Of a DNA stretch of 64,000 nucleotides, positions 12,453 to 36,268 are shown piece after piece. Source of the DNA: a virus (taxonomy: Duplodnaviria > Caudoviricetes); IMG/VR virus record IMGVR_UViG_3300021400_000027, positions 96,001-160,000 of that record; one strand, written 5' to 3'. The position numbers and the translations under genes were made by a program. How positions within the stretch are numbered: the first letter of the stretch is position 1; every line of letters begins with the position of its first letter. A model generated the notes under the pieces. It saw only the letters and a program-made list of their open reading frames with translations. It was not told the DNA's origin and did no database searches.

Positions 12453-12473
12453 ATTAAATGGAGGTGAGTAGGA

Positions 12474-13730: not shown

Positions 13731-13731
13731 A

Positions 13732-14351: not shown

Positions 14352-15125
14352 ATGAACTATATGACTTACATGGGAGGAAAACAACGGTTAGCACCGAATA
14401 TAGTACCGATACTGAATAAATATATAAAAGAAAATGGAATTGAGAATTTTTATGATGTAATGTGTGGCGGCGCAAACATTATTTCGGGGGTTGAATGTAA
14501 TGAACTCTATGCTAATGATTTAAGTCCAACTCTTATTGCACTTCATTAGGCGGCGCAACAAGATTTTTCTTCAATTTGTACCGACAGTTCTCGTGAGCAA
14601 TGGGACAGATGTTATGGGGAGTATAAAAAGTTAAAGTCTGCAAATTTCAAGAAAGAATCTTCAATTCCTCTTGCTGAAATTGGAGCAATTGAATGGTTTG
14701 GAGGATTTTCTGGGCGGGGATTTCCCGGTGGATATGCAGTTTTATCTCAGGGGCGAAACCAGTTTGAAGAGCGTTATAATAACTTAAAAAAGCAATCTCA
14801 ATTACCATCTTACTTAAAAATCCATTTTACTTGTGGGGATTATCGAGATTTAGAGTTTAAACCTAATTCTTTAATCTATTGTGATGGTCCTTATAGGGGA
14901 ACTAAAACTTACGGGATTAGTACAAAATTCGTTTACTCGGATTATTATAAATGGTTAATGAGAACGGCAAAAACTACCCCTATCTTTATAAGTGAACAAG
15001 AACTTCCTCTTGAAATACCAGCTTCAATAATTTGGCAAAAAGGGGTTAAGAGAGACATAGACCCAGCGAAAAATAAAACTGAAAAAATTGAAAAATTATT
15101 TTTCTTAGATTTAAGAGAGGAGTAA
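14352..15125 (+). CDS. Dam-like (D12 class) DNA methyltransferase (TAG=Gln)
   Basis: YMGGK, FYDVMCGGANI, YANDLS, then LIYCDGPY after TAG read-through; TAA at 15123. Confidence 0.8.
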
Positions 15126-15129
15126 GACA

Positions 15130-15831
15130 ATGGACAGATTATTTATTACCGGAGACACTCACGGCACAATTGACATTGAAAAACTGACATATAGGAAATT
15201 CCCTATTCAGAGTGAACTTTATCGTTCTGATGTAATGGTAATACTTGGAGATTCTGCTTTGTGTTGGGATGGTGATGGAACAGATAGATGGTTACAAAAT
15301 TGGTATAAAGAGAAGAAATTTTCAACCCTGTCTGTTCGTGGCAATCATGATAATCCTGACTTAATTGCAAAACTTCCTCTTGAACCTCGTTATGGCGGTA
15401 TGGTCTATTCCATATCTCCCAATGTATGTTACGCCGCCACTGGTGAAATTTATACATTAAGTGGCTTTAAGTGTCTTTGTGTAAATGGGGCAGACTCTCA
15501 CGATATTGCCTTTAGAAAAGAAGGCGAAAGTTGGTGGCGCGGCGAGACAATTACTAAGGAACAATATGAAAAATGTATGAAGAATCTGGAAAAGCATAAT
15601 TTTAAAGTTGACTTTGTTTTTTCTCATACTGGTGGACTTCAAGTCAATGCATTTCTGGGCTTCAATGAGACTCAATCTGATAAATATCTGGATAAAATTT
15701 TAGAACAGCTTACCTATACCTATCACTATTGTGGACATTATCACGTAGACAAATGGGTAAACTCTAAAACCAGAATCCTTTATAATGACATAATTGAATT
15801 AACTAATTGGGAAAATCAATGGAAATTTTGA
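15130..15831 (+). CDS. calcineurin-like metallophosphoesterase
   Basis: GDTHG, LGD, GNHD, SHT, GHYH motifs. Confidence 0.9.
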   Translation: MDRLFITGDTHGTIDIEKLTYRKFPIQSELYRSDVMVILGDSALCWDGDGTDRWLQNWYKEKKFSTLSVRGNHDNPDLIAKLPLEPRYGGMVYSISPNVCYAATGEIYTLSGFKCLCVNGADSHDIAFRKEGESWWRGETITKEQYEKCMKNLEKHNFKVDFVFSHTGGLQVNAFLGFNETQSDKYLDKILEQLTYTYHYCGHYHVDKWVNSKTRILYNDIIELTNWENQWKF

Positions 15832-23117: not shown

Positions 23118-23187
23118 AAGACAGTTCAGCAACTCTTAAAAAAACATTAGCTTTTGGGGACTAATTAGTTTAAACGAAACTGTCTTG
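23118..23187 (+). ncRNA. CAGCA-stem RNA E1
   Basis: AAGACAGTT-CAGCAA...AACTGTCTT-G; internal hairpin with TTTGGG loop. Confidence 0.7.
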
Positions 23188-23193
23188 TTATTT

Positions 23194-23267
23194 GCGTCTG
23201 TAGCTCAGATGGTTAGAGCATCGCTCTTTTAAAGCGAGGGTCATGCGTTCAAATCGCATCAGACGCA
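23194..23267 (+). tRNA. tRNA-Lys(TTT)
   Basis: Cloverleaf; TCGCT-ctTTTaa-AGCGA. Confidence 0.9.
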
Positions 23268-23271
23268 CTAT

Positions 23272-23340
23272 GGAGATGCAGCAGGATATTTATTTATAAA
23301 TTTGAATCTGCATGAGGGTCAAATCCTTCCATCTCCACCA
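23272..23340 (+). ncRNA. truncated tRNA-like RNA with CCA
   Basis: GGAGATG/CATCTCC-ACCA acceptor and T-like arm; no recognisable D or anticodon arm. Confidence 0.55.
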
Positions 23341-23407
23341 TTTAAAAAATTGACTTTTAATTAAAAATTGTATATAATATATATACAATTTAAAAAGAAA
23401 TTTAAAT

Positions 23408-23478
23408 TGCCCGTTCGTCTAAAGGTAGGACAGCAGTTTTTGGCACTGCTGATAGGAGTTCGATTCTCTTACGGGCAA
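23408..23478 (+). tRNA. tRNA-Gln(TTG)
   Basis: TGCCCGT/ACGGGCA acceptor; GCAGT-ttTTGgc-ACTGC. Confidence 0.9.
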
Positions 23479-23486
23479 TCATAAAT

Positions 23487-23561
23487 GCAGGGAGAGCTTA
23501 TTAGGTACAAGCACTCGCCTTATAAGCGAGAGATAGTCGGGTTCAAATCCCACGCCCTGTA
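23487..23561 (+). tRNA. tRNA-Ile(TAT)
   Basis: CTCGC-ctTATaa-GCGAG; bulged T stem. Confidence 0.8.
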
Positions 23562-23563
23562 TA

Positions 23564-23635
23564 AAGACAGTTCAGCAACTCTTTTTAAGAACATTAGTAT
23601 TTGGGAACTGATTAGTTTAAAATGAAACTGTCTTG
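23564..23635 (+). ncRNA. CAGCA-stem RNA E2 (paralog of E1)
   Basis: Same stem as E1; internal loop ttTGGga. Confidence 0.7.
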
Positions 23636-23641
23636 TTATTT

Positions 23642-23714
23642 GCTCCCATAGCTTAGTTGGTAAAGCATCACACTTTTAATGTGAGGAGCGAGAGTTCGAG
23701 TCTCTCTGGGGGCA
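23642..23714 (+). tRNA. tRNA-Lys(TTT)
   Basis: TCACA-ctTTTaa-TGTGA. Confidence 0.9.
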
Positions 23715-23718
23715 TTAT

Positions 23719-23806
23719 GGAGATGTGGCAGAGTTGGTCGAATGCGGCACACTGCTAATGTGTTTGTCATTAAGTTGGCACGAAGGTTCGAATCCTTTCA
23801 TCTCCG
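23719..23806 (+). tRNA. tRNA-Ser(GCT)
   Basis: GCACA-ctGCTaa-TGTGT, long variable arm, G73. Confidence 0.9.
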
Positions 23807-23882
23807 TCAATTAAAAAATTGACTTTTAATTAAAAATTATGTATAATATATATACAATTTGATTTAAAAGTCAAATATAAAC

Positions 23883-23956
23883 TGCCCTGTGGACAAGTGG
23901 CTTAAGTTGGGAGTCTCTAAAACTCTAAGACCTCCGTTCGAATCGGAGCAGGGCAA
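23883..23956 (+). tRNA. amber suppressor tRNA(CTA), Gln-type
   Basis: TGCCCTG/CAGGGCA acceptor (U1-A72 like tRNA-Gln at 23408); GGAGT-ctCTAaa-ACTCT with anticodon at 23917-23919; T arm CTCCG-TTCGAAT-CGGAG. Confidence 0.9.
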
Positions 23957-23963
23957 TCGAACT

Positions 23964-24019
23964 AAGACGGTTCAGCAACTCTATTTATTTGATATGTGGC
24001 TTCAAATTTCTCCGTCTTG
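23964..24019 (+). ncRNA. CAGCA-stem RNA E3
   Basis: AAGACGG-TT-CAGCAA...CCGTCTT-G; hairpin with atGTGgc loop. Confidence 0.7.
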
Positions 24020-24116
24020 AAAGTTCAAATCAATTAAAAATTTGAAATTTCTTTTAAAATTTGCTATAATATTTATAGTAAATGAGAAAGAAAGCCAAAT
24101 TGAAAGGAGCAAGCCT

Positions 24117-24362
24117 ATGTATATTTCAGTTCAGTTTAAGAATAAAAACAAAGAGTTTGTTGGTAAGCATTATGACTATGAATTGCTTCCTGATGAAAAA
24201 GTACCGGCAGTTGGCTCTATTATCCGAATGATGGACGAAAATTATAATTTTGTGTGTTACGGCACAAGAGTTATGGTTACTTCCGTTAAAATGAAAAGTG
24301 CTTCGGCAAAGGTCGCTATCAGATGTCTTGAAACGACACTTGATGATGAACAGGACAGTTAA
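24117..24362 (+). CDS. hypothetical protein
   Basis: Start moved to ATG after RBS AAGGAG. Confidence 0.6.
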   Translation: MYISVQFKNKNKEFVGKHYDYELLPDEKVPAVGSIIRMMDENYNFVCYGTRVMVTSVKMKSASAKVAIRCLETTLDDEQDS

Positions 24363-24416
24363 AAATTTGAAATAAAAAATAAAATGAAGTATAATAATTA
24401 TAGAAATTAAAGAAAT

Positions 24417-24490
24417 GGGAGAGTAGCTCAGTCGGTGGTAGCAAACGGCTGTTAACCGTTAGGTCAAGGGTTCGAGTCCCTTCTCTCCCG
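24417..24490 (+). tRNA. tRNA-Asn(GTT)
   Basis: AACGG-ctGTTaa-CCGTT. Confidence 0.9.
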
Positions 24491-24500
24491 TTATTTAAAT

Positions 24501-24573
24501 GGGGTTGTAGTTCAGTTGGGAGAACGTTTGTCCTGCAAACAAAAGGTCGTGGGTTCGATTCCCACCTTCTCCA
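24501..24573 (+). tRNA. tRNA-Ala(TGC), atypical
   Basis: G3-U70; loop ccTGCaa (C33); two U-U acceptor mismatches. Confidence 0.75.
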
Positions 24574-24577
24574 CTTT

Positions 24578-24654
24578 GGGAACGTAGCTTAGTTGGTAAA
24601 AGCACTCGGCTGATAACCGAGAGACCAGCGGTTCGAGTCCGCTCGTTCCCACCA
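24578..24654 (+). tRNA. tRNA-Ile(GAT)
   Basis: CTCGG-ctGATaa-CCGAG; encoded CCA. Confidence 0.9.
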
Positions 24655-24657
24655 AAT

Positions 24658-24731
24658 GCGGAATTGGTGTAATGGTAGCATTTCTGCCTTCCAAGCAGAC
24701 AGTGGGGGTTCAAATCCCCTATTCCGCTCCA
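24658..24731 (+). tRNA. tRNA-Gly(TCC)
   Basis: TCTGC-ctTCCaa-GCAGA; CCA. Confidence 0.9.
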
Positions 24732-24733
24732 AT

Positions 24734-24818
24734 GGGTAAGTATGCAAACTGGTGAAGCGAGCTGTCTGTAAAACAGTTGCCATTGGCGTTGTAGGTTCGA
24801 GTCCTACCTTACCCACCA
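24734..24818 (+). tRNA. tRNA-Tyr(GTA)
   Basis: GCTGT-ctGTAaa-ACAGT, long variable arm, CCA. Confidence 0.9.
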
Positions 24819-24820
24819 TT

Positions 24821-25034
24821 AAGACAGTTACAGCAACTTCACATAGAAAAGATATTTATTTAGTAAATTTAGTTTGTGGAGTTCTCCCGTGATGTGATAG
24901 GGAGAAAGAATTAAAGTTCGCACTCAACTATAAAGTGCAATAAAAATTTATTTTCGCCGTATAGGTGGCGGAGTTGTTTCGCCGCCGGCGGGTTTCCCTT
25001 GACCTTATAAGGAATTTAAATTTTAGCTGTCTTG
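24821..25034 (+). ncRNA. CAGCA-stem RNA E4 (long, multi-hairpin cargo)
   Basis: AAGACAGTTA-CAGCAA...TAGCTGTCTT-G enclosing about 190 nt with at least four hairpins. Confidence 0.65.
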
Positions 25035-25440
25035 CATAGGTCGCCTAAATAAAGGCTTACCCTTTAAAGTTAAATTTATGCATGGTTTCAGGAAACCGAA
25101 AAATCCGAATCGAAGTTGAGCCGCCATTCAACTTCGTCCTGTGGCGGCAGGTTTTGAGGGTGGAGACCTTTTAAACTCCCGTTTGACGAACGTTATTAAA
25201 GTCTGACAGATGACATAATATTGCTCTAAATAGCCTCATCTAAGAATGGAATTTGAGCAGGTTAGAGTTTATCCTTAAAGCCAACCGGTTGAAAGTCCGT
25301 TGGACGGTAATAATCGTCCAAAGAATGGGAACTATTTGCTGACCTTCACGTGGTGTTTCTGAGTTTGGCTAACAGCAAAAAGTGATACTCGGCTTTATAG
25401 TTGAGAAAGTTATCCGAGTTAAACGCTTCTCAACAAAATT
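25035..25440 (+). ncRNA. candidate large structured ncRNA
   Basis: ORF-free, GC-richer, many helices and two apparent pseudoknots. Confidence 0.55.
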
Positions 25441-25452
25441 TATTAGATAGGA

Positions 25453-26037
25453 GTGATAACTTTGGTTGGAAATTGGGACATTAATGTTGTTGTAGGTAAG
25501 CTTCCGCAGAAAGTTGCTACTGCTTTTGCAAATCTTGGTGAAACAATTATTGGAGCAACATATACTCCAATTGCATATATTGGTTCACAGATTGTGAATG
25601 GAGTAAATCATGCGGTATTGGCTGAACAGACAATTATTACCGGCAGAGATACAAAGAATATCGTCTTAATTATTTTTAATGAAAAACCAGAGGGTGTTTC
25701 GTTAGTTAATATTGAGAGAGTTGTTGAAGGCGGTTTGGAACTCGGCGGAACAAAAATTGATGTAAAAACTGAAATTCCAGAAGATGCTCAGTCTGCATTC
25801 AATGAAGCAATTGGTAGCTTTGTTGGTTCTACAGTAGAACCCTTTGCATTAGTTGCAACTCAGGTTACAAAAGGTACGGACTACATCTTTGTAGCAACTG
25901 TTAAGCCTTTGGCACTTGAAGCAAAAGCAACTGTTGCTCTGGTTACGGTGAATACTCTTGAAAAGAGAATTTCCTTTATTGATGTGATTCAGCCGAATCT
26001 TAATAAAGCAAGTCTTGGATATGCTTTTACTTGGTAA
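25453..26037 (+). CDS. protein with internally duplicated domain (cystatin-like QxxxG motifs)
   Basis: PIAYIGSQIVNGVNH and PFALVATQVTKGTDY halves. Confidence 0.6.
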   Translation: MITLVGNWDINVVVGKLPQKVATAFANLGETIIGATYTPIAYIGSQIVNGVNHAVLAEQTIITGRDTKNIVLIIFNEKPEGVSLVNIERVVEGGLELGGTKIDVKTEIPEDAQSAFNEAIGSFVGSTVEPFALVATQVTKGTDYIFVATVKPLALEAKATVALVTVNTLEKRISFIDVIQPNLNKASLGYAFTW

Positions 26038-26134
26038 TAGGGAGATTAAATTCTCCCCTACCAATTAAAAATTTGAAATTTCTTTTAAAATTTGCTATAA
26101 TATTTATAGTAAATGAGAAAGAGATAAAAAAAAT

Positions 26135-26210
26135 AGCGGAGTGGAGCAGTTGGTAGCTCGCAAGATTCATTATCTTGAGGTCGTAGGTTCAAGTCCTGCC
26201 TCCGCAACCA
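26135..26210 (+). tRNA. tRNA-Met(CAT), initiator-like
   Basis: 1:72 mismatch; CAAGA-ttCATta-TCTTG; CCA. Confidence 0.85.
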
Positions 26211-26217
26211 GCACTTA

Positions 26218-26348
26218 AAGATACGTACAGCAAACCACTTAGCTTAGGAATTTTAATCCCCGTGATGCAGGTTCGAGTCCTGTCTTTACAGTCTTTACTG
26301 TAAAGTAGCTTAATTGGCAGAGCAGGTAAATGCAAACAACGTATCTTG
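26218..26348 (+). ncRNA. CAGCA-stem RNA E5 with circularly permuted tRNA-Lys(TTT)
   Basis: AAGATACGT/ACGTATCTT stem; order is anticodon loop, T arm, acceptor hairpin, D arm. Confidence 0.8.
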
Positions 26349-26354
26349 TTAAAT

Positions 26355-26429
26355 GCCTCATTAGCTTAGATGGTCGAAAGCACCCGACTCTTAATCGGGG
26401 GAGCATGGGTTCAAATCCCATATGGGGTA
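26355..26429 (+). tRNA. tRNA-Lys(CTT)
   Basis: CCCGA-ctCTTaa-TCGGG. Confidence 0.9.
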
Positions 26430-26433
26430 CTAT

Positions 26434-26510
26434 GGCGGTGTAGTTCAGTAGTGTAGAACATCGGACTGTCACTCCGAAGGTCGCCGGTTCGAGTCCGGTC
26501 ATCGTCGCCA
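26434..26510 (+). tRNA. tRNA-Asp(GTC)
   Basis: TCGGA-ctGTCac-TCCGA; GCCA end. Confidence 0.9.
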
Positions 26511-26512
26511 TA

Positions 26513-26636
26513 AAGACACATCAGCAAAACAATTCTTTTGCATTGGGAGCATGAGTTAGAGGTTCGATTCCTCTATCCACGACCAAATTATACTGTGGAT
26601 TGGTGAAATGGTATCACGCATTATAAGTGTGTCTTG
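26513..26636 (+). ncRNA. CAGCA-stem RNA E6 with circularly permuted tRNA-Pro(TGG)
   Basis: AAGACACA/TGTGTCTT stem; 3' half ending ACCA precedes the 5' half. Confidence 0.8.
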
Positions 26637-26642
26637 TATTTT

Positions 26643-26715
26643 GCTTCTGTAGCACAATTGGTAGTGCATCTCACTTGTAATGAGAGGGTTGTAGGTTCGA
26701 GTCCTATCAGAAGCT
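26643..26715 (+). tRNA. tRNA-Thr(TGT)
   Basis: TCTCA-ctTGTaa-TGAGA. Confidence 0.9.
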
Positions 26716-26719
26716 CTAT

Positions 26720-26793
26720 GCCGGTGTAGCTCAGTTGGTAGTAGCGTATGCCTGAAGAGCATAGCGTCAGAGGTTCGATTCCTCTCGCCGGCA
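26720..26793 (+). tRNA. tRNA-Phe(GAA)
   Basis: TATGC-ctGAAga-GCATA. Confidence 0.9.
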
Positions 26794-26799
26794 TCAGTT

Positions 26800-26926
26800 A
26801 AGATTCGTCAGCAGAAGTATTTCAAAATTTACATACACCAAATGCCAGTATGTATGGTGTAACGGTAGCACACTCACCAGTTAAGTGAGAGGTAAAGGTT
26901 CAACTCCTTTGGCAGAACGAATCTTG
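26800..26926 (+). ncRNA. CAGCA-stem RNA E7 with permuted tRNA-Asn(GTT)-like cargo
   Basis: AAGATTCGT/ACGAATCTT stem; TACATAC-ACCA precedes GTATGTA plus D, anticodon and T arms. Confidence 0.75.
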
Positions 26927-26930
26927 TTTC

Positions 26931-27002
26931 CGCCCTATCGTCTAACGGTTAGGACATCGCACTTTCTATGCGAAAATCCCAGTTCGAGTCTGGGTAGGGT
27001 GA
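26931..27002 (+). tRNA. tRNA-Glu(TTC)
   Basis: TCGCA-ctTTCta-TGCGA (U37). Confidence 0.85.
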
Positions 27003-27049
27003 TTAAGCGTTATTAAAACGCAAAAATAAGTAAAAGGAGAAGAGAGGTC

Positions 27050-27553
27050 ATGAATACTAAAAAATTTTATCGTGGTAATGGTCAAATCGTAACCTACGAT
27101 GGAATGATGAAAGTAATTGCAGACTACATCATGGAAGATACGAAAAGTGATTATGAAATCACAGTAGGCACAGATAGCCAAAACCATGACCTAACAAAAA
27201 TGGTTGAAGTTATCGCTGTACATCGTGTTGGAAAAGGTGGTATCTTCTTCTACAGAACAGAATATGTTCGTAAAATTCGAGTTTTAAAAGAAAAAATTGT
27301 TGAAGAAACATCTCGTTCTTTAGAGAACGCAGAGGGGTTATTAGATACAGTTCAACTTTATTTACTCGAAAAAGATATTGATATTGACAAACTCAATATT
27401 CATTTTGTAATTCATTGTGATATTGGTCATGCCGGCAAGACACAAGCACTTATTAAAGAAATTGTTTCTTGGGTTCAGTCTTGTGGTTATGAATGTCAGA
27501 TTAAGCCAGATAGCTATGCTGCGTCTGGTATTGCAAACAAAATTTCTAAGTGA
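27050..27553 (+). CDS. RNase H-like YkuK (DUF458) family protein
   Basis: VGTDSQ, R.GKGG.FFY, ET..S, IHCDIG..G.T, IKPDSYAAS..A. Confidence 0.85.
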   Translation: MNTKKFYRGNGQIVTYDGMMKVIADYIMEDTKSDYEITVGTDSQNHDLTKMVEVIAVHRVGKGGIFFYRTEYVRKIRVLKEKIVEETSRSLENAEGLLDTVQLYLLEKDIDIDKLNIHFVIHCDIGHAGKTQALIKEIVSWVQSCGYECQIKPDSYAASGIANKISK

Positions 27554-27558
27554 ACAAT

Positions 27559-27662
27559 GCGTTGATAGCCAAGCATTAAAAGGCACTAAGACAATAGGAG
27601 TCCTTGTCGTGGGAACTTCACCCACATGGAATGCGTGTGATTGAAACTGCACACTCAACGCT
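27559..27662 (+). ncRNA. enlarged tRNA-like RNA
   Basis: GCGTTGA/TCAACGC acceptor-like stem, D-like arm, three further hairpins. Confidence 0.55.
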
Positions 27663-27665
27663 TTT

Positions 27666-27749
27666 GCCGCTGTGGTGGAATTGGCAGACACAAGGGACTT
27701 AAAATCCCTCGGAGTAAAATCCGTACCGGTTCAAATCCGGTCAGCGGCA
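27666..27749 (+). tRNA. tRNA-Leu(TAA)
   Basis: AGGGA-ctTAAaa-TCCCT, long variable arm. Confidence 0.9.
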
Positions 27750-27753
27750 CTAT

Positions 27754-27814
27754 AAGACGGTTACAGCAATCTTTAAGGATTTATTTGGTTCGATTCCAGA
27801 GGTTTTCCGTCTTG
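27754..27814 (+). ncRNA. CAGCA-stem RNA E8 (T-arm cargo)
   Basis: AAGACGG/CCGTCTT stem; TGG-TTCGATT-CCA T-loop hairpin. Confidence 0.7.
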
Positions 27815-27845
27815 AAGATTTTATTTTGAAAAGGAGATAATCTAA

Positions 27846-28460
27846 ATGAGAAAAGTTATTATTGTTATTTTATCCGTTATTGCTATTGCGACAATTGTAC
27901 TGCCTGAGGGAGAGTACGGTCCGGTAACTATTACTTCTTACGCCGCAGAGGGACAGTTTAATTCAAATGGATTACAGGCTAATAACCTTGGTATTCCTAT
28001 TAATGAATTTGTTGACGCTCCGGCAACAGCACCAATTCCTTTTGGTCAGCTTGTTGATGCTCCTATGACTGCACCAGTATCAGTTCCTTCTGATAAGTTT
28101 GTTGATGCTCCTATGACTGCACCGTCAGCGGAGACTTCTATGACTACAACTACAAAAGAAACTACAACTACAGCTGAACTTGTGTCAGCTCCAGAAACCG
28201 CACCAGAAGTTTTAGATACTGCTCCAGCGACAGCACCAACAACTACTACCTCAACCACTACTTCAACTACTACTACAGTAACAACCACCACAACTACAGC
28301 TACCACTTCGGCTTCAACCGTTTTGGCAGATATGAAGTGTGCAGATGGTGCTGAATTAAGAGTAAGTGAAGATTCAAACGGTAAGGTTGAAATTGAAGCA
28401 TCAGGCGAAAAAGACTTACTTAAAGAAATTTTTGGTTTTATTAAAGACCTGTTTTCTTAA
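27846..28460 (+). CDS. secreted Thr/Pro-rich protein with (D/S/T)APxTAP repeats
   Basis: Signal peptide, five APxTAP repeats, poly-Thr tract. Confidence 0.7.
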   Translation: MRKVIIVILSVIAIATIVLPEGEYGPVTITSYAAEGQFNSNGLQANNLGIPINEFVDAPATAPIPFGQLVDAPMTAPVSVPSDKFVDAPMTAPSAETSMTTTTKETTTTAELVSAPETAPEVLDTAPATAPTTTTSTTTSTTTTVTTTTTTATTSASTVLADMKCADGAELRVSEDSNGKVEIEASGEKDLLKEIFGFIKDLFS

Positions 28461-28479
28461 GCGGTTCGCCGCTTAATAT

Positions 28480-28553
28480 CGGGGATTACGTCAATTTGGT
28501 AGACGGCGGCATTTGGGATGCCGAGGCTGCGAGTTCGAGTCTCGCATCTCCGA
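28480..28553 (+). tRNA. tRNA-Pro(TGG)
   Basis: CGGCA-ttTGGga-TGCCG. Confidence 0.9.
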
Positions 28554-28643
28554 CTAAAGCACCTAATGCGGATATGGTGCTATATTTTCATGGTGATTAC
28601 CTCCTAAAATTGCCAAAGTTGTGTCGCTTGGCGGCACAACGCT

Positions 28644-28722
28644 GGGGATATGGTGGAATGGCAGACACGCTTGCCTTAGAAGCAAGTGCTTCGGCGTGAG
28701 AGTTCAAGTCTCTCTATCCCCA
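28644..28722 (+). tRNA. tRNA-Leu(TAG)
   Basis: CTTGC-ctTAGaa-GCAAG, long variable arm. Confidence 0.9.
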
Positions 28723-28729
28723 CTAAAAT

Positions 28730-28802
28730 GGAGTCGGTAGTGTAATGGCTAACACGTCAGTTTGTGGCACTGATAATGAGAGTTCGATTCTCTCCCTTCT
28801 CC
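28730..28802 (+). tRNA. tRNA-His(GTG)
   Basis: Encoded G-1:C73; TCAGT-ttGTGgc-ACTGA; two acceptor mismatches. Confidence 0.85.
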
Positions 28803-28891
28803 CTTGGTGCGCAGGTTTGATGCAATGCGACATGTTCAGAAATCCGTGTACTATAGAGTATTCCTGCACAATCTATAGCGGTATTTAATTA

Positions 28892-29037
28892 AAGACACTA
28901 CAGCAAAACATTTCTAAATGGACTGTAAATCCGTTGGGGAAGTCCCTTCGTAGGTGCAAATCCTATCCTCGCCCACCAAAATATGGGCGAGTAGCCAAGT
29001 AGACAAAGGCGACGGACCATATATTAAAAGTGTCTTG
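28892..29037 (+). ncRNA. CAGCA-stem RNA E9 with circularly permuted tRNA-Tyr(GTA)
   Basis: AAGACACT/AGTGTCTT stem; GGA-ctGTAaa-TCCGT, variable arm, T arm, CTCGCCC-ACCA, linker, GGGCGAG, D arm. Confidence 0.85.
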
Positions 29038-29041
29038 AAAT

Positions 29042-29122
29042 GTGGAGATGCCAGAGTGGTTGATTGGGACGGACTGCAACTCCGTTGCGTAAGCCTCGTC
29101 GGTTCGAATCCGACTCTCCACT
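29042..29122 (+). tRNA. tRNA-Cys(GCA) with long variable arm
   Basis: ACGGA-ctGCAac-TCCGT; U73; 12-nt variable region. Confidence 0.8.
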
Positions 29123-29127
29123 TTAAT

Positions 29128-29201
29128 CTCCCCTTAGCTCAATTGGATAGAGCAACGGATTTCTAATCCGTAGGTTGAAGGTTCGAGTCCTTCAGGGGAG
29201 G
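29128..29201 (+). tRNA. tRNA-Arg(TCT)
   Basis: ACGGA-ttTCTaa-TCCGT. Confidence 0.9.
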
Positions 29202-29209
29202 CTTAATTT

Positions 29210-29283
29210 GTCGCTTTAGTTCAATTGGATTAGAACCTCCGGCTACGAACCGGAAGATACGAGTTCAAGTCTTGTAGGCGGCG
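29210..29283 (+). tRNA. tRNA-Arg(ACG)
   Basis: TCCGG-ctACGaa-CCGGA. Confidence 0.9.
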
Positions 29284-29287
29284 TAAA

Positions 29288-29361
29288 AAGACAACTTACA
29301 GCAATTTAATTATATCGCCTTAAGTTTTTCCTGTACAGTGATATGTCAGGGTGTTGTCTTG
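29288..29361 (+). ncRNA. CAGCA-stem RNA E10
   Basis: AAGACAAC-TTA-CAGCAA...GTTGTCTT-G. Confidence 0.7.
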
Positions 29362-29369: not shown

Positions 29370-29458
29370 GGAAGATTAATTCAGCCGGCGCTGAACCTCG
29401 TCTTGAAAACGAGTGGTGCGGTGAAACGCATGGGGCTCGACACCTCAGTCTTCCGCCA
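29370..29458 (+). tRNA. tRNA-Ser(TGA)
   Basis: CTCGT-ctTGAaa-ACGAG, long variable arm, GCCA; atypical T loop. Confidence 0.85.
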
Positions 29459-29466
29459 CTAACCTT

Positions 29467-29501
29467 AAGACCTTACGGCATTAAATTAAATAAAGGTCTT
29501 G
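29467..29501 (+). ncRNA. minimal CAGCA-stem variant E11
   Basis: AAGACCTT-A-CGGCA...AAGGTCTT-G just upstream of the Ro-like gene promoter. Confidence 0.5.
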
Positions 29502-29607
29502 AAGTTAAAATAATTTGAGTTTTTAAAAATTTTTTGCTATAATATTTATAGTGAAAAGGAAAAAGTCCGAATTAACTTTAACTTACAATGAAAAGGAGAA
29601 ATGTGTA

Positions 29608-31077
29608 ATGAGTTTTGTAAATCAGTTCAAAAGAATGTCCGATATGACCACCACTGAAAATGGAGGTCTGGCTTATAAGTCTACCGGCTCTGACCTTTTA
29701 TCTCTGTTCGCTAATATTGGCGGTATGAGAGATAGAAATGATAGCGATATTATTTCTGCTTGGAAACTCGCAAGAAAGGAAGATAAGCTGTTAGCAGATA
29801 ACCTTATTCTCTATTCTCGTGATATTCGTAATGCCGGACTTGGTGAGCGTAGAATTGGCAGACTCTTATTAAAAGAGCTTGCTATGGTTGACCCTCGTAA
29901 GGTAGAGCGTAATCTCCAGAAGATTGTCGATGCCGGCAGATGGGACGACTTGTTCGTATTTGAGGGAACTCCTGCATGGGATGAAACCGTTCGCTTTATC
30001 CAGAATCAGTTCCGTACTGATGTCAATGGAATGAAGAAGAACGAACCTATTTCTCTGCTTGCAAAGTGGCTTCCTTCTATTAACGCTTCTTCTGAAAAGA
30101 CTAAGCGTCTGGCTCGTACTTTCTGCACCTTGTTCAGCTTAACTCCTCGTACTTATCGTAAGAGCCTCTCCGCTATGCGTAAGTACATTGATGTAGTTGA
30201 ACGTAAGATGTCAGCTGGTCAGTGGAATGAAATTAACTTTGAAACTGTTCCTTCTGTTGCAATGTCTCGTTATATTGCAACCTACAATAAGCGTTGTCAG
30301 GAACGCTTTGCCGAATACAAGGCTTCCCTTGAAAAGGGCGAAGCTAAGGTTAATGCGGCAACTCTCTTCCCTTATGACATTGCTTTAAAGTTCATAGGCA
30401 ATTGTAATGGCTATGGTTGTAGATATACTCATCTGGATGCAGTTGATGAAGCACAGTGGAAGGCTCTGCCTAACTATGTTTCTGACGAGTTCGATGTAGT
30501 TGTAATGGCAGACGTATCCGGCTCTATGTACTCTTCTGATAGTCGTCCTATGGCAACTTCTATTGGTCTGGCAACTTACTTTGCTCAACGCAACAAAGGT
30601 GCATATCACAATATGTATTTAAGTTTCACTGACCGTCCTCATTTCATTACCCTGCGTGACGAGATGTCGCTGGAAGATTGCTTAAAATACGTGTTAAAGG
30701 AGGGTGTTGGCTACAATACTGACCTTGACCTTGCTTTTGAAGCTATCTATAAAGTGGCAAGCACTGCCGGAGAAGCACCTAAAGCTCTTGTCATTATTAG
30801 TGATATGGAGATTGATTCTTTCTGCGGAGAGAATTATGAATCCATTGCTCAAAAATGGCAGAGAATTTACGCTAAAGCTGGATTAACTGCTCCTAAGTTA
30901 ATTTGGTGGAATGTAGATTCCAGAGAGGGTAGAGTTCTCGCTCGTCAGGACGAGAATGTAGGATTTGTATCAGGTTATGGTGTCGGTCCGTTCAAGAATC
31001 TTCAATCTCTGATTGAAAAAGACGCTTATACCGCAATGGTAGAAATCCTCTCTCAGGACGCTTTCACTTGGAATTAA
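29608..31077 (+). CDS. Ro60/TROVE-related protein with C-terminal vWA (DUF2828-type)
   Basis: TTTENGG..Y.ST, RDIR..G.GER, GRWDDL, LLAKWLPS, MIDAS ADVSGSM, ISDME, WNV; start moved to ATG 29608 after AAGGAG. Confidence 0.8.
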   Translation: MSFVNQFKRMSDMTTTENGGLAYKSTGSDLLSLFANIGGMRDRNDSDIISAWKLARKEDKLLADNLILYSRDIRNAGLGERRIGRLLLKELAMVDPRKVERNLQKIVDAGRWDDLFVFEGTPAWDETVRFIQNQFRTDVNGMKKNEPISLLAKWLPSINASSEKTKRLARTFCTLFSLTPRTYRKSLSAMRKYIDVVERKMSAGQWNEINFETVPSVAMSRYIATYNKRCQERFAEYKASLEKGEAKVNAATLFPYDIALKFIGNCNGYGCRYTHLDAVDEAQWKALPNYVSDEFDVVVMADVSGSMYSSDSRPMATSIGLATYFAQRNKGAYHNMYLSFTDRPHFITLRDEMSLEDCLKYVLKEGVGYNTDLDLAFEAIYKVASTAGEAPKALVIISDMEIDSFCGENYESIAQKWQRIYAKAGLTAPKLIWWNVDSREGRVLARQDENVGFVSGYGVGPFKNLQSLIEKDAYTAMVEILSQDAFTWN

Positions 31078-31099: not shown

Positions 31100-31314
31100 T
31101 AGGCTCTATACAGCAAAATCAATAGAAATATACATCAAATTGATTTTAGTTAAATAATTGGCATTTACCTGTAGTTGTCAAAACCTTGTAACAGGTTAAG
31201 TTACCGCACACTTCTTTTGTGTAAATGAAGTCCCTCCCGTTCCAGTTTGGGATTGTATAACTGGTGATAGTGGAATAAATTTTCTACCGAAGTCTGAGAA
31301 CAGCAAGAGCCTAG
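31100..31314 (+). ncRNA. CAGCA-stem RNA E12 (long cargo)
   Basis: TAGGCTCT-ATA-CAGCAA...AGAGCCTA-G with several internal hairpins. Confidence 0.65.
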
Positions 31315-31319
31315 TCTTA

Positions 31320-31367
31320 ACGATTCTTCAGCAGAATTGTTTCAAGAATTGAAAAAAAAGAATCGTG
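31320..31367 (+). ncRNA. CAGCA-stem RNA E13
   Basis: ACGATTCTT-CAGCAG...AAGAATCGT-G. Confidence 0.65.
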
Positions 31368-31426
31368 AGGGAGTTGAACAATTAAAAAAGTTCAATTCCC
31401 TTTTGTAATTTTTAAGGGGTGATACT

Positions 31427-33475: not shown

Positions 33476-34399
33476 ATGAAACAGAAACATTATGTAGATA
33501 TTGAACGTTTTAAGGCTAAATATGACGAAGCCATCAGCGTTGGTGACCTCATTCATGTAAGTGAGAAAATCGATGGTGCGAATGCTTCTTTCACCTATGA
33601 CCCTGAAACCGGCACAGTAAAGGCTTTCAGTCGTAAGAATGAACTCTCTGCTGACAATACACTTCGAGGATTCTATAATTACGTTCAGAGTATGCCTCTT
33701 GATTTCGTTAAGCGAGTAGTAACAAATAACGGCAAGTGGGTAATTTTCGGAGAATGGCTTGTCCCTCATTCAGTTAAATATCCTGATGAAGCATATCATC
33801 ATTTTTACATCTATGATATATGGGACACAGAAAATGAAATCTGGTGTGACCAGAATTTCGTAAATCTCATGTGCTCTATATTTAAATTATATTCTGTTGA
33901 TGTGCGTCAGCCGGAATGCTTCTACTATGGAAAATTTAATGGTTGGGAAGAGCTTTATAAACTTGTAGGTAAAACCGCCATTGGGGCTACCCCGTGCGGC
34001 GAAGGTATCGTTATAAAGAACCAATCCGTACTTGACCAGAAGAATCGCCGACTGCCTACTTACATTAAAATTGTAAGTGAAAAGTTTGCAGAAGTTCATA
34101 AAAATAAGCCTAAGACTGTTGACCCCGAAGTGTTGAAACAGCGTGAAGCTTCTCGTCAGCTTGCGGCAACAATTGTCACTGAACAGCGTGTTCAGAAATT
34201 CCTGAATAAATTTGTTGACGAGGGTATCCTCCCTGAAGACTGGGACGAACGCAATTTCGGAACAATTGCAAAGACCTTACCTCGTGAAATTTACAATGAC
34301 TGTGTAAAGGAAGAGCCGGAAACAACTAATCAAATTGAGGATTTCGGCAAAATTTGTGGCAAACTTACTATGGAACTTGTAAGGAGTCTAATAAAATGA
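33476..34399 (+). CDS. RNA ligase, Rnl2-like family
   Basis: Motif I EKIDGAN, FSRK, FGEW, FYIYDI, GEGIVIK, KIV. Confidence 0.85.
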   Translation: MKQKHYVDIERFKAKYDEAISVGDLIHVSEKIDGANASFTYDPETGTVKAFSRKNELSADNTLRGFYNYVQSMPLDFVKRVVTNNGKWVIFGEWLVPHSVKYPDEAYHHFYIYDIWDTENEIWCDQNFVNLMCSIFKLYSVDVRQPECFYYGKFNGWEELYKLVGKTAIGATPCGEGIVIKNQSVLDQKNRRLPTYIKIVSEKFAEVHKNKPKTVDPEVLKQREASRQLAATIVTEQRVQKFLNKFVDEGILPEDWDERNFGTIAKTLPREIYNDCVKEEPETTNQIEDFGKICGKLTMELVRSLIK

Positions 34400-35146
34400 G
34401 AAAAGTGTTTGAATTTTTACTTCTGCTTGCCGGATTATATTCCGGCATAGCACTCATTTTTAATAGCTACGCCGAGTGGCTTACTAATCTAATAAATTTT
34501 ATGAATGAACCTTCCGCCGGCTCTGCTATTGCAACAGTTTTGTGGCTTGTCTTTGCCGGCATATCAACTCACCTAACATCAAGAATGTTAAGTAAATAAA
34601 TAGGAGGAATTGATTTATGCAAGTTATTGAAAAATGGGGTTCTATTTATGTACCCGCAGATTATGAACGTTATGGTACTCGTTGTTGCATTTGCAACAAG
34701 CCGGCACAGTATGTGGATATTTTCTCTGAACAGGGAATTTGTTCCTTTGAATGTGCTGAAAAGCACAATCGTGAAATGGAAAAGTTGGAGATTGAAATGG
34801 AGAGAAAGTGTCCTGCCTGTCCTGAATAAGTAAAAAAATGTCGAATTTTGTCGATTAAAAATTTGATTTTCTTTTATTTTTATAGTATAATATATATACA
34901 ATAAGAAAAAAGGAGAGAAAAATTATGTATGTAGAAATGGTTGAGTTATATTCTGTAAGCCCTGAAGGATTTAGTGGTAATTGGGAATATCGTGACCGCT
35001 TAATCTTTACACTTCCGGCAGAATCCGACATGGATGAAGCTCTTGAAAGAGCAAAAACTGATTTCGCTTTAAAATATGGCGTTGACCGTCAACTCGTTAA
35101 GGTATATAGAGATACCAGCGAATGCTTCTAAGAAAGGAGAACCCCT

Positions 35147-36268
35147 ATGGCACAGCAATTATTAGAGTTACAAAAATTTATTCTGGCTAATCCTTCTGAT
35201 TGGAAGGAAAAATTGCAGGCTAAACCCTACTGCCTGAAAATTCAGGAAGATGATGATTTAGTATTGTTCAAGTATTCCCAGATTGATTCTGACTTCTCTG
35301 AGACAATTTGCCGTGAAGCCAGAGGGGTTATTCTTGAACGTGATACTTGGAAAATTGTAAGATTTGCTTTTCGTAAATTTTTTAATCTTGGTGAACCTCA
35401 TGCCGATAAAATTGATTGGGAATCTGCTACTGCGACTTCTAAAGAGGACGGCTCTTTAATTTCTCTTTACTACTATAAAGGCTGGCAAATTGCTACTAAT
35501 GGTAATCTGTATGCTTGGAACGCTCCTTTAGGTGTCGCCGGATTCCAGACTTTTGAAGATTTAGCTATGGAAGCACTTTTAAAATATAATGTAGATTTTC
35601 ATTCTTTGAATAAGAATTATACTTATACTTTTGAACTTTGCTCACCTTATAATCAAATCGTATGTTCCTATCCCGATATTCAGCTTTTCCATACTGTTAC
35701 TGTTGATAATAGAACTCTTGAAGAAGTTGACGCTGAAATAGGAGTACCTAAACCTAAATTTTATGATTTAAATTCCAAAGTTGAGTATGAGGAATTGGTT
35801 AATTCTTTACCGGAAAATACTGAAGGTATCGTTGTTCGTGACAAGTTTGGTAAACGAGTAAAAATTAAGACTAAACTCTATTTTGAACTTCATAGACTTG
35901 TAAATAATGGGCATATTGATGTAGAAAAAGCATTGCAGTTAATTCTGGAAAATGACTACGAGGAACTTCTCGCTTATTATCCTAATTATACTAATTTCTT
36001 TTCACAGGTCAAGGACGCATATAAAAATGCTCTTGATTATATTAAAGAAGTAAAAAGTTGGACTACAGAGTGGGAGAGGGAAAATCTCTTTACTGCTACT
36101 CGTGAAGGATTCGCTACTGCTCGTAAAATCTTCGCCGCCGCCGTAAAAGATAAACCTATTCCTTCCCTATACTTTTTAGCTTATGACGGCAAACTGAAAA
36201 AATTTGAAGATGATTTAACTGCAAAGAAAATTTTATCTGTATTCAGAAACTATTTTGAGGGGATTTAA
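35147..36268 (+). CDS. RNA ligase, T4 Rnl1 (RnlA)-like family
   Basis: EARGVI, KFFN, KEDGSL, FEL.SPYN.IV, EGIVV, VKIK...Y. Confidence 0.85.
   Translation: MAQQLLELQKFILANPSDWKEKLQAKPYCLKIQEDDDLVLFKYSQIDSDFSETICREARGVILERDTWKIVRFAFRKFFNLGEPHADKIDWESATATSKEDGSLISLYYYKGWQIATNGNLYAWNAPLGVAGFQTFEDLAMEALLKYNVDFHSLNKNYTYTFELCSPYNQIVCSYPDIQLFHTVTVDNRTLEEVDAEIGVPKPKFYDLNSKVEYEELVNSLPENTEGIVVRDKFGKRVKIKTKLYFELHRLVNNGHIDVEKALQLILENDYEELLAYYPNYTNFFSQVKDAYKNALDYIKEVKSWTTEWERENLFTATREGFATARKIFAAAVKDKPIPSLYFLAYDGKLKKFEDDLTAKKILSVFRNYFEGI

What the first reader, a model, noticed from the sequence alone, without database searches (positions are those of the whole stretch)
26218..29037. Three circularly permuted tRNAs (Lys, Pro, Tyr) all opened at nt 28/29
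Seen: in E5, E6 and E9 the tRNA 3' half precedes the 5' half, and a short linker closes the acceptor stem (E5 CTTTACA-GTCTTTAC-TGTAAAG; E6 ATCCACG-ACCA-AATTATAC-TGTGGAT; E9 CTCGCCC-ACCA-AAATAT-GGGCGAG). Joining the last 2 nt of the 5' half to the first 3 nt of the 3' half rebuilds a perfect anticodon stem each time: GG+GGA/TCCCC (Lys TTT), CA+TGC/GCATG (Pro TGG), AC+GGA/TCCGT (Tyr GTA). The CAGCA handle therefore branches from the same position of an otherwise complete cloverleaf. Established: permuted tRNA genes matured through a circular intermediate are known in some algae and archaea; YrlA-type RNAs replace the anticodon arm rather than keep it. Inference: these are either full tRNA mimics tethered to Ro, or precursors that are cut, ligated by the phage RNA ligases and reopened at the acceptor loop. 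Normal Lys, Pro and Tyr tRNAs are also present, which favours a decoy or adaptor role.
Basis: partly seen in the sequence, partly recalled or inferred. Interest (0 to 1): 0.92.

Follow-up and report, generated by a model that had tools for sequence, protein, structure and literature searches.

The report
Back-to-front tRNA mimics on Ro-like handles
Three small RNA genes in this phage's tRNA cluster are complete tRNA look-alikes (Lys, Pro, Tyr) written back-to-front on a conserved "handle", most likely partner RNAs of the neighbouring Ro60-shaped protein rather than tRNA precursors; they go beyond known bacterial Y RNAs by keeping a real anticodon arm.

Summary
E5 (26218-26348), E6 (26513-26636) and E9 (28892-29037) run anticodon hairpin, T arm, closed 7-bp acceptor hairpin, D arm. 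Re-joining them at 28/29 in silico makes ARAGORN call tRNA-Lys(ttt), Pro(tgg) and Tyr(gta). Chance is about 1e-6 or less.

The back-to-front order is not new: it is the topology of YrlA-type Y RNAs, and Rfam YrlA weakly matches E5. What is new is the retained anticodon hairpin, which YrlA lacks.

All three carry the handle (AAGAY..CAGCAA / RTCTTG) shared by ten RNAs upstream of a DUF2828 protein whose predicted fold matches Ro60.

In related rumen and gut phages:
- the split anticodon stem persists with compensatory changes;
- the break lies between 26/27 and 29/30, not at random positions;
- Pro-type loops vary from 7 to 9 nt, and CCA or acceptor pairs can be lost;
- whole tRNA genes sit nested in the acceptor loop.

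This favours Ro-like-bound tRNA mimics, probably nicked by RNase P as M. smegmatis YrlA is. It argues against splicing into working tRNAs and against duplication debris.

No RNA data could be obtained. Earlier notes of this scan (AI, unchecked) report the same handle/DUF2828 system on other genomes.

The parts
26218..26348 (+). E5: handle RNA with back-to-front tRNA-Lys(UUU)-like cargo. Handle strands 26218-26226 / 26339-26347, ACAGCAA 26227-26233, anticodon hairpin 26247-26259, CC 26260-26261, T arm 26267-26283, acceptor hairpin 26284-26305 (linker GTCTTTAC, no CCA), D arm 26308-26323, GG 26325-26326.
   Evidence: Rfam YrlA 31.6 bits, full length; 82.2 bits to model R1
26513..26636 (+). E6: handle RNA with back-to-front tRNA-Pro(UGG)-like cargo. 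Handle 26513-26520 / 26628-26635, CAGCAA 26522-26527, anticodon hairpin 26539-26551, TG 26552-26553, T arm 26558-26574, acceptor 3' strand 26575-26581 + ACCA 26582-26585, linker 26586-26593, acceptor 5' strand 26594-26600, D arm 26603-26617, CA 26619-26620.
   Evidence: (63.7 bits)
28892..29037 (+). E9: handle RNA with back-to-front tRNA-Tyr(GUA)-like cargo with long variable arm. Handle 28892-28899 / 29029-29036, ACAGCAA 28900-28906, anticodon hairpin 28920-28932, GT 28933-28934, variable arm 28935-28949, T arm 28950-28966, extra C 28967, acceptor 3' strand 28968-28974 + ACCA 28975-28978, acceptor 5' strand 28985-28991, D arm 28994-29010, AC 29012-29013 followed by a second GGA 29014-29016.
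   Evidence: (60.3 bits)
26800..26926 (+). E7: same handle, cargo in normal order (D arm, anticodon arm with loop CAGTTAA, T arm). The handle takes the place of the acceptor stem.
   Evidence: (Rfam tRNA 36.6 bits, model positions 8-63)
23118..29361 (+). The ten-member handle-RNA family, starting at 23118, 23564, 23964, 24821, 26218, 26513, 26800, 27754, 28892 and 29288, interleaved with 24 tRNA genes. Several members have no tRNA-like cargo.
   Evidence: (10 of the 11 forward-strand matches in the 180-kb genome fall in this 6.2-kb stretch)
29551..31077 (+). DUF2828 + DUF7788/vWA protein with a Ro60-like predicted fold. The true start is probably about 19 codons downstream.
   Evidence: phrog_850 'RNA-binding protein'; pLDDT 88.6; Ro60/TROVE structures, E 6e-9 to 1e-7
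26073..26101 (+). Promoter-like site (TTGAAA-17-TATAAT, TG extended) ahead of the operon tRNA-Met, E5, tRNA-Lys, tRNA-Asp, E6, tRNA-Thr, tRNA-Phe, E7, tRNA-Glu. E5 and E6 have no promoter-like site of their own.
27050..27553 (+). RNaseH-like (PF04308) ORF embedded in the array. It occupies the same place in 12 related loci.
33476..36268 (+). Rnl2-like (33476-34399) and T4 Rnl1-like (35147-36268) RNA ligase genes.

Best explanation
E5, E6 and E9 are three members of a family of small RNAs that share a conserved terminal handle: an 8-9 bp stem, AAGAY.../...RTCTTG, with an unpaired (A)CAGCAA. This handle is most likely the binding site of the adjacent Ro60-shaped DUF2828 protein, making the RNAs functional analogues of Y RNAs.

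Their cargo is a tRNA-derived module in the YrlA order (T arm, closed acceptor hairpin, D arm). Unlike YrlA, it also keeps a full anticodon arm. Two or three base pairs at the top of the anticodon stem are formed with nucleotides after the D arm, and the rest is a small hairpin in the 5' part, so the handle hangs off the 5' strand of the anticodon stem of an otherwise complete L-shaped tRNA body.

Inferred steps:
- They are transcribed within tRNA operons and released by the enzymes that trim the flanking tRNAs.
- E6 and E9 (7-bp acceptor stem, encoded ACCA, tRNA-like spacer) are probably also cut by RNase P in the acceptor loop. That would give a two-piece RNA held together by its helices, as shown for M. 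smegmatis YrlA.
- The Ro-like ring then displays Lys-, Pro- and Tyr-shaped tRNA bodies. These would recruit or titrate proteins that read tRNA shape plus anticodon, such as host anticodon nucleases, modification or repair enzymes, in the setting of the phage's tRNA supply and RNA-ligase repair genes.

Shown here: the anatomy, its conservation and covariation, the association with the Ro-fold gene, and the lack of splicing signals. Inferred: protein binding, RNase P nicking, and the decoy/adaptor role.
For: Anatomy and chance:
- Complete cloverleafs after in-silico re-joining.
- Chance about 1e-6 or lower.

Kinship with YrlA:
- Rfam YrlA aligns over its full length to E5 with the same T-acceptor-D order.
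- Literature: YrlA lacks an anticodon loop and has a closed acceptor stem.
- M. smegmatis YrlA, with a 7-bp stem, is cut by RNase P, gains CCA, and both halves stay on Rsr.

The handle:
- It is shared by ten RNAs with varied cargo.
- It is confined to the 6 kb upstream of the DUF2828 gene within a 180-kb genome.
- It sits directly beside that gene in distant relatives, where the stem covaries and CAGCAA stays fixed.

The protein:
- Its predicted fold matches Ro60.

Conservation of the cargo:
- The core covaries: 94% of cells paired, and all 7 acceptor pairs show changes on both sides. This alignment was fitted to the model, so it leans towards the structure.
- Split anticodon stem, Lys type: GG+GGA/TCCCC (window), GA+GAA/TTCTC (L005:6235), GAG+GC/GCCTC (L002:8917).
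- Split anticodon stem, Pro type: pair 27-43 is C-G, A-T or G-C, and pair 28-42 is A-T, C-G or G-C.

Processing:
- Whole tRNA(-like) genes lie nested in the acceptor loop in L001, L008 and L017 but not in L009.
- There is no promoter-like site of their own, and the elements abut tRNA genes.
Against:
- The handle does not carry the Ro-binding motif of YrlA (GNCGAAN0-1G) or of metazoan Y RNAs.
- The protein is not a TROVE-family member by sequence, so 'Y RNA' is an analogy.
- Nearest-neighbour folding does not pick the cloverleaf: E5 proposed -23.8 against MFE -35.4 kcal/mol, E6 -21.5 against -33.4. For E9 it prefers the hairpin-less YrlA-like closure.
- The only E9 orthologue (L004) lies in a nearly identical array, so it gives no covariation for the E9 hairpin.
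- The decoy/adaptor role is pure inference.
Confidence: 0.68

Rival explanations
1. Two-piece working tRNAs. After RNase P and 3' trimming open the acceptor loop, the RNA keeps its handle but has free 5' and CCA ends. It is then aminoacylated by the host Lys-, Pro- and Tyr-tRNA synthetases. This would be either a chargeable decoy or sensor, or, less likely, a decoder on the ribosome.
For: - 7-bp acceptor stems, encoded ACCA in E6 and E9 and in several relatives, and A73 with a U1-G72 wobble pair in E6 (G72 and A73 as in E. coli tRNA-Pro).
- E5 and E6 keep U8, A14, R15-Y48, G18G19 and T54-Psi55-C56 (read).
- Nested tRNA genes in the acceptor loop imply cleavage there.
Against: - E5 and all Lys-type relatives have no CCA in the linker.
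- The L004 copy of E9 has ATCA and an A-C mismatch in the acceptor stem.
- Pro-type loops of 8-9 nt occur in L041, L014, L009 and L017.
- E9 lacks G18 and U55 and has an extra C at 65/66.
- A handle of about 50 nt plus a bound protein at position 28/29 would probably clash in the ribosomal decoding site (inference).
Confidence: 0.14
2. True permuted pre-tRNAs. The handle acts as a leader-trailer helix; the RNA is cut at the 28/29 junction, joined by the phage Rnl1/Rnl2 ligases through a circular intermediate, and reopened in the acceptor linker to give ordinary tRNA-Lys, -Pro and -Tyr.
For: - The 3' half precedes the 5' half with a short linker, as in permuted tRNA genes of Cyanidioschyzon and some archaea.
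- Re-joining gives perfect stems.
- Two RNA ligases are encoded 4-6 kb downstream.
Against: - No bulge-helix-bulge motif. The junction is flanked by 13-17 and 6-15 unpaired nucleotides, not by a helix.
- The same handle carries non-tRNA cargo, a T arm alone, acceptor-less tRNA bodies and whole normal-order tRNAs.
- The break varies from 26/27 to 29/30, and 1-3 nt are duplicated in E6 and E9, so no single cut-and-join rule works.
- Orthologous loops are 7-9 nt.
- Canonical genes for the same three anticodons exist.
Confidence: 0.06
3. The anticodon hairpins are evolutionary left-overs. YrlA-like mimics arose from tandemly duplicated tRNA genes, and the small hairpins simply have not yet decayed, so they have no function of their own.
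For: - Duplicated nucleotides at the junction (GGA in E9, T in E6) look like scars of a tandem duplication.
- Loop length drifts in the Pro type.
- Some family members (L012:9758, L041:9008) have no hairpin at all.
- For E9 the hairpin-less fold is more stable.
Against: - Compensatory changes keep both parts of the split stem in Lys- and Pro-type elements, across phages whose Ro-like proteins are only 50-70% identical.
- The TGC/GCA hairpin stem and the ...GGA end of the loop are kept in every Pro-type copy.
- The cargos are not recent copies of the phage's own tRNAs: 65-70% identity, no better than to unrelated tRNAs.
Confidence: 0.12

Closest known systems
YrlA-type bacterial and phage Y RNAs bound by Ro60/Rsr (Rfam RF02553; Chen et al. 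2014, PMC4201824; structure preprint 10.1101/312249)
   Same: - A terminal stem made of the 5' and 3' ends, then T arm, closed acceptor-like hairpin and D arm.
- Encoded beside a Ro60-shaped protein, often in phage tRNA regions.
- The Rfam model aligns end to end with E5.
   Different: - YrlA has no anticodon loop; these RNAs have a 7-nt loop with U33, R37 and a recognisable anticodon.
- The score is far below Rfam's threshold (31.6 against 69 bits).
- The handle motif is ACAGCAA, not GNCGAAN0-1G.
- The protein is DUF2828, not TROVE, by sequence.
- There are ten or more RNAs per genome rather than one or two.
Mycobacterium smegmatis YrlA (Chen et al. 2014)
   Same: A 7-bp acceptor stem. That RNA is cut by RNase P in the acceptor loop in vivo and in vitro, gains CCA, and both halves remain on Rsr. 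This is the model for how E6 and E9 may be processed.
   Different: Processing was not tested here. The mycobacterial RNA has no anticodon arm.
Deinococcus radiodurans Yrn1
   Same: A Y RNA noted to have a possible 'anticodon arm' (5-bp stem) between D-like and T arms. It resembles E7 in this window.
   Different: Normal rather than back-to-front order, a 6-nt loop, no variable arm, and a true TROVE partner.
Circularly permuted tRNA genes (Cyanidioschyzon merolae, some archaea) and split tRNAs of Nanoarchaeum
   Same: The 3' half is encoded before the 5' half with a short linker in the acceptor stem, and leader and trailer pair with each other.
   Different: Those have a bulge-helix-bulge motif at the junction, are cut by the splicing endonuclease and become ordinary tRNAs. 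There is no such motif here, the handle is shared with non-tRNA cargo, and the break lies inside the anticodon stem.
Two-piece (permuted) tmRNA of alpha-proteobacteria and cyanobacteria (RF01851, RF04321)
   Same: A bacterial tRNA-like domain encoded back-to-front whose acceptor linker is excised to give a two-piece RNA. E6's T arm plus ACCA hairpin gives weak hits to these models.
   Different: There is no mRNA-like reading frame and no SmpB-type partner, and the hits are far below threshold (12.6-14.5 bits).

Membership tests
YrlA (Rfam RF02553) | Reaches the Rfam gathering score (69 bits) | tested here: not met
   E5 scores 31.6 bits (E 8e-4 over 8 kb). E6 and E9 give no YrlA match at E up to 5.
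YrlA (Rfam RF02553) | Terminal stem enclosing T arm, closed acceptor-like hairpin and D arm, in that order | tested here: met
   Model R1 finds 14 such cores at E <= 1e-9 with 94% of cells paired and covariation in all three helices.
YrlA (Rfam RF02553) | Anticodon stem runs on into the Ro-binding stem; no anticodon loop | tested here: not met
   A hairpin with a 7-nt loop branches off after 2-3 bp of the anticodon stem. The literature states that YrlA lacks the loop.
YrlA (Rfam RF02553) | Conserved GNCGAAN0-1G motif in the 5' strand of the Ro-binding module | tested here: not met
   The invariant motif here is (A)CAGCAA after an AAGAY stem. The YrlA motif is as quoted.
YrlA (Rfam RF02553) | Bound by the Ro60 orthologue | not testable with these tools
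   Only gene neighbourhood is available: the handle clusters next to the DUF2828 gene in this genome and in relatives.
Ro60 / TROVE proteins (for the neighbouring gene) | Pfam TROVE domain match | tested here: not met
   Pfam gives DUF2828, DUF7788 and a weak VWA_2 match, with no TROVE at E <= 0.01. There is no PDB sequence match.
Ro60 / TROVE proteins (for the neighbouring gene) | Helical-repeat (HEAT-like) domain followed by a vWA domain, as seen in Ro60 structures | tested here: met
   The AlphaFold model has pLDDT 88.6. The top Foldseek hits are all Ro60/TROVE structures over the full length (E 6e-9 to 4e-7, TM about 0.5), followed by vWA/MIDAS domains. Closure of the helical part into a ring was not inspected.
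Circularly permuted tRNA genes matured through a circular intermediate | 3' half upstream of 5' half, joined by a short acceptor linker | tested here: met
Circularly permuted tRNA genes matured through a circular intermediate | Bulge-helix-bulge motif at the leader/trailer junction | tested here: not met
   The junction is flanked by unpaired spacers (13-17 nt on the 5' side, 6-15 nt on the 3' side). No 3-4-3 motif appears in the sequence or in the predicted folds.
Circularly permuted tRNA genes matured through a circular intermediate | A mature tRNA with the joined junction exists | not testable with these tools
Elongator tRNA (RF00005) | Contiguous cloverleaf recognised by tRNA finders | tested here: not met
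   Not called by ARAGORN or Rfam in genomic order; called only after rearrangement in a script.
Elongator tRNA (RF00005) | 7-nt anticodon loop and intact acceptor/CCA kept among orthologues | tested here: not met
   Pro-type loops are 7, 8 or 9 nt. The L004 copy of E9 has ATCA and an A-C mismatch. L005:6235 has only 5 of 7 acceptor pairs.

The most novel reading that the evidence does not exclude
After RNase P opens the acceptor loop, these become two-piece, CCA-ended RNAs with complete Lys, Pro and Tyr identity. They would be charged by host synthetases while held on a Ro-like ring. This would be a previously unseen kind of 'tethered tRNA' that a phage uses to bait, sense or neutralise anticodon-directed host defences (tRNA-Lys and tRNA-Tyr nucleases), or to feed broken tRNAs to its ligases.
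Probability: 0.15. Interest if true: 0.85.

Novelty: new variant of a known kind. Interest (0 to 1): 0.62.

Why it matters
Y RNAs and their Ro60 partners are conserved from bacteria to humans, but what the tRNA-like half of bacterial Y RNAs does is still unknown.

Here a divergent Ro-shaped protein comes with a whole set of partner RNAs. Some of these display complete tRNA bodies with specific anticodons (Lys, Pro, Tyr, and Asn in E7). They sit inside a phage tRNA array next to tRNA-repair ligases.

This gives a concrete, testable idea: the tRNA-like module is read by anticodon-specific factors. It also offers a system of many natural variants for finding those factors. It widens the Ro/Y-RNA world to a second protein family (DUF2828) that is common in gut and rumen phages; more than 7000 homologues were scored.

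Tried and rejected
No expression, end or junction evidence was obtained.
- A blastn search of the region against 50,697 phage records returned only generic tRNA similarity.
- A sequence search of the protein against the PDB found nothing; only the fold search was informative.
- A handle-independent script for back-to-front tRNA units was too permissive and gave mostly noise. I replaced it with covariance model R1. That model also picks up ordinary tRNA-tRNA junctions at lower scores, so each hit had to be read by eye.
- Minimum-energy folding does not select the cloverleaf for E5, E6 or E9. I treat this as uninformative, because tertiary contacts are not modelled.
- I looked for a parent among the phage's own 26 tRNAs and found none closer than 65-70% identity.
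- A 7-nt repeat (TAGCTTA) between E5's 5' spacer and its D arm could be a duplication scar, but it is within chance expectation and is not kept in L005, so I dropped it.
- Literature searches for DUF2828 and for permuted tRNAs in phages found no description of this system.

Full report
**Setting.** The window is bases 96001-160000 of a complete 179.8-kb phage record with terminal repeats. It carries 26 tRNA genes and a tmRNA, including a CTA suppressor tRNA.

Between 23118 and 29361 on the + strand, interleaved with 24 of the tRNA genes, a script finds ten RNAs with the same ends. Each has 5' AAGAY, 3-6 nt, then (A)CAGCAA, and a 3' strand that pairs with the first 8-9 nt and ends in CTTG.

Over the whole genome, 10 of the 11 forward-strand matches to the 5' pattern fall in this 6.2-kb stretch. 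The next gene (29551-31077) is DUF2828 + DUF7788/vWA and belongs to phrog_850, 'RNA-binding protein'. Two RNA ligases (Rnl2-like and T4 Rnl1-like) lie 2.4 and 4 kb further on.

**The observation.** After the handle and an unpaired spacer come:
- a 3-bp hairpin with a 7-nt loop (ATTTTAA, ATTGGGA, CTGTAAA);
- two more nucleotides of the same strand;
- a variable region (15 nt in E9, as in bacterial tRNA-Tyr);
- a T arm;
- a 7-bp acceptor hairpin closed by a 6-12-nt linker (E6 and E9 encode ACCA);
- U8-N9 and a D arm;
- one nucleotide, then two nucleotides that pair with the two left over after the hairpin.

Neither ARAGORN nor Rfam calls them as they stand. When positions 1-28 are placed in front of 29-76 in a script, ARAGORN calls tRNA-Lys(ttt), tRNA-Pro(tgg) and tRNA-Tyr(gta). 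Shuffling the 5' spacers gives a joint probability of about 1e-6 for the three hairpins, and 6e-9 if U33 and R37 are also required.

Three qualifications apply:
- In E9 the whole ACGGA follows the D arm. Positions 29-31 are therefore present twice, and RNAfold prefers the closure without an anticodon hairpin.
- In E6 one T is duplicated in the same way.
- E9 also has non-canonical features: an extra C between T stem and acceptor strand, a T loop TGCAAAT, and no GG in the D loop.

E5 and E6 keep all the usual tertiary nucleotides.

**What the order means.** The back-to-front order is not a curiosity of these three RNAs. The Rfam YrlA consensus is itself a terminal stem enclosing T arm, acceptor-like hairpin and D arm, and it aligns over its full length with E5 at 31.6 bits, below the 69-bit threshold. 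Chen et al. 2014 described this for more than 250 bacteria and phages. The crystal-structure paper states that YrlA has a closed acceptor stem and 'lacks the anticodon loop'. The new feature is therefore the retained anticodon hairpin, not the permutation.

**The protein.** Pfam TROVE does not match, and no PDB sequence matches. An AlphaFold model built on 36 homologues (pLDDT 88.6) has Ro60/TROVE structures as its thirteen best Foldseek hits, aligned over the full length. These include Xenopus and human Ro60, Deinococcus Rsr and the Ro60 of Thermus phage phiLo (E 6e-9 to 5.5e-6). vWA/MIDAS domains follow. More than 7000 homologues were scored.

**Relatives.** I fetched 83 loci around homologues from viral and metagenome contigs, mostly rumen and human gut.

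The handle recurs in them with many kinds of cargo:
- no tRNA part at all;
- a T arm only;
- D-anticodon-T with the handle in place of the acceptor stem (like E7);
- a whole normal-order tRNA;
- the back-to-front type.

In relatives with only 44-46% protein identity, the handle lies directly before and after the gene. Its stem sequence differs (GGCTC/GAGCC, GTCAC/GTGAC) but CAGCAA and AAG..CTTG are unchanged.

A covariance model of the T-acceptor-D core (R1) finds 14 clear back-to-front cores. In these, 94% of cells are paired, 12 of 16 pairs change on both sides, and all seven acceptor pairs covary. The alignment is fitted to the model, so it leans towards the structure.

**The split anticodon stem in relatives.**
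- Lys type: GG+GGA/TCCCC (window), GA+GAA/TTCTC (L005:6235), GAG+GC/GCCTC (L002:8917). All have loops ATTTTAA or TTTTTAA. Compensatory changes occur at 28-42, 30-40 and 31-39.
- Pro type (window E6, L011:714, L073:7973, L041:8556, L014:3355, L009:8990, L006:2431, L008, L017): pair 27-43 is C-G, A-T or G-C. Pair 28-42 is A-T, C-G or G-C. Pair 29-41 is T-A or G-C, and the base at 29 comes from the hairpin side in some copies and from the D-arm side in others.

The break therefore lies at 28/29 or 29/30. In a third group (L009:8814, L001:8338, L005:9690) the whole 5-bp hairpin is on the 5' side, so the break is at 26/27. Break points are clustered, not random, and the stems are maintained.

**Signs that these are not working tRNAs.**
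- Pro-type loops are 7 nt (ATTGGGA, TTTGGGA, TTATGGA, GTTAGGA), 8 nt (GTTTCGGA, GTTGTGGA, GTTTAGGA) or 9 nt (ATTGTGGGA).
- Lys-type elements never encode CCA.
- L005:6235 has only 5 of 7 acceptor pairs.
- The L004 copy of E9 lies in an array otherwise about 97-99% identical to the window, yet has ATCA for ACCA and an A-C mismatch in the acceptor stem.
- Canonical genes for all three anticodons are present.
- The cargos are no closer to those genes than to unrelated tRNAs.

**Processing.** E5 and E6 sit 2-7 nt from the neighbouring tRNA genes, in an operon behind a promoter-like site at 26073-26101, and have no promoter-like site of their own. Their ends are presumably made by the enzymes that trim the tRNAs.

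In L001, L008 and L017 a complete tRNA or tRNA-like gene is nested in the acceptor loop of the Pro-type element (L008 8910-8985, tRNA-Leu by ARAGORN). L009, a close relative of L008, has the same element with an 8-nt linker. An acceptor loop that tolerates a whole tRNA gene is almost certainly cut.

M. smegmatis YrlA also has a 7-bp stem. It is cut there by RNase P, receives CCA, and both halves stay on Rsr. I therefore expect E6 and E9 to end up as two-piece RNAs. This step is inferred.

**Against maturation into ordinary tRNAs.**
- There is no bulge-helix-bulge motif; the junction is flanked by unpaired spacers.
- The same handle serves cargo that could never become a tRNA.
- The break position shifts and nucleotides are duplicated.
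- Loop length varies.

**Conclusion.** These are Y-RNA-like partner RNAs of a Ro60-fold protein whose tRNA-mimic module is complete, anticodon arm included. The most likely role is to bring proteins that read tRNA shape and anticodon to the Ro-like ring, or to keep them away from real tRNAs, as part of the phage's tRNA supply and repair kit. The role itself is inference.

Earlier notes of this scan (AI, unchecked) report the same handle/DUF2828 pairing in at least 16 other genomes. Some of those have the handle grafted into the anticodon arm of normal-order tRNA shapes. I did not test those.

Noticed in passing
window 27050-27553: An RNaseH-like (PF04308) ORF sits inside the tRNA/handle-RNA array here and at the same place in 12 related loci, with 52-99% identity. 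It could be a processing factor for these RNAs.
   Followed up: partly
L001:8509-8749, L008:8834-9036, L017:9439-9639: The Pro-type back-to-front element carries a whole tRNA or tRNA-like gene nested in its acceptor loop. L009:8990-9114 has the same element without the insert.
   Followed up: partly
window 28950-29010 and L009:9015-9098: E9 and the L009 Pro-type element share a T loop TGCAAAT (U55 replaced by G) together with D loops that lack GG. Both partners of the tRNA elbow contact have changed.
   Followed up: no
L004 (whole locus) versus window 26218-29361: The tRNA/handle array of L004 is about 97-99% identical to the window (RNaseH-like protein 98.8%), yet its Ro-like protein is only 67% identical. 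This is a mosaic suggesting recent exchange of the array or of the gene.
   Followed up: no
window 24821-25034: E4 is a 214-nt handle RNA whose cargo is not tRNA-like: several GC-rich hairpins, two of them terminator-like.
   Followed up: no
window 29373-29500 and 31100-31370: Further handle-like elements with variant motifs lie just before and after the Ro-like gene: ACGGCA in a short AAGACCTT...AAGGTCTTG unit, TAGGCTCTATACAGCAA...AGAGCCTAG, and ACGATTCTTCAGCAG...GAATCGT. My pattern missed them.
   Followed up: no
window 23883-23956; 8164-15130: There is a tRNA with anticodon CTA, and a 7-kb stretch without long code-11 ORFs. Both fit TAG being read as an amino acid in part of this genome.
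   Followed up: no
window 27846-28460: A 204-aa ORF inside the tRNA array has an N-terminal hydrophobic segment and Thr/Pro-rich repeats. It matches no Pfam or PHROG family.
   Followed up: no
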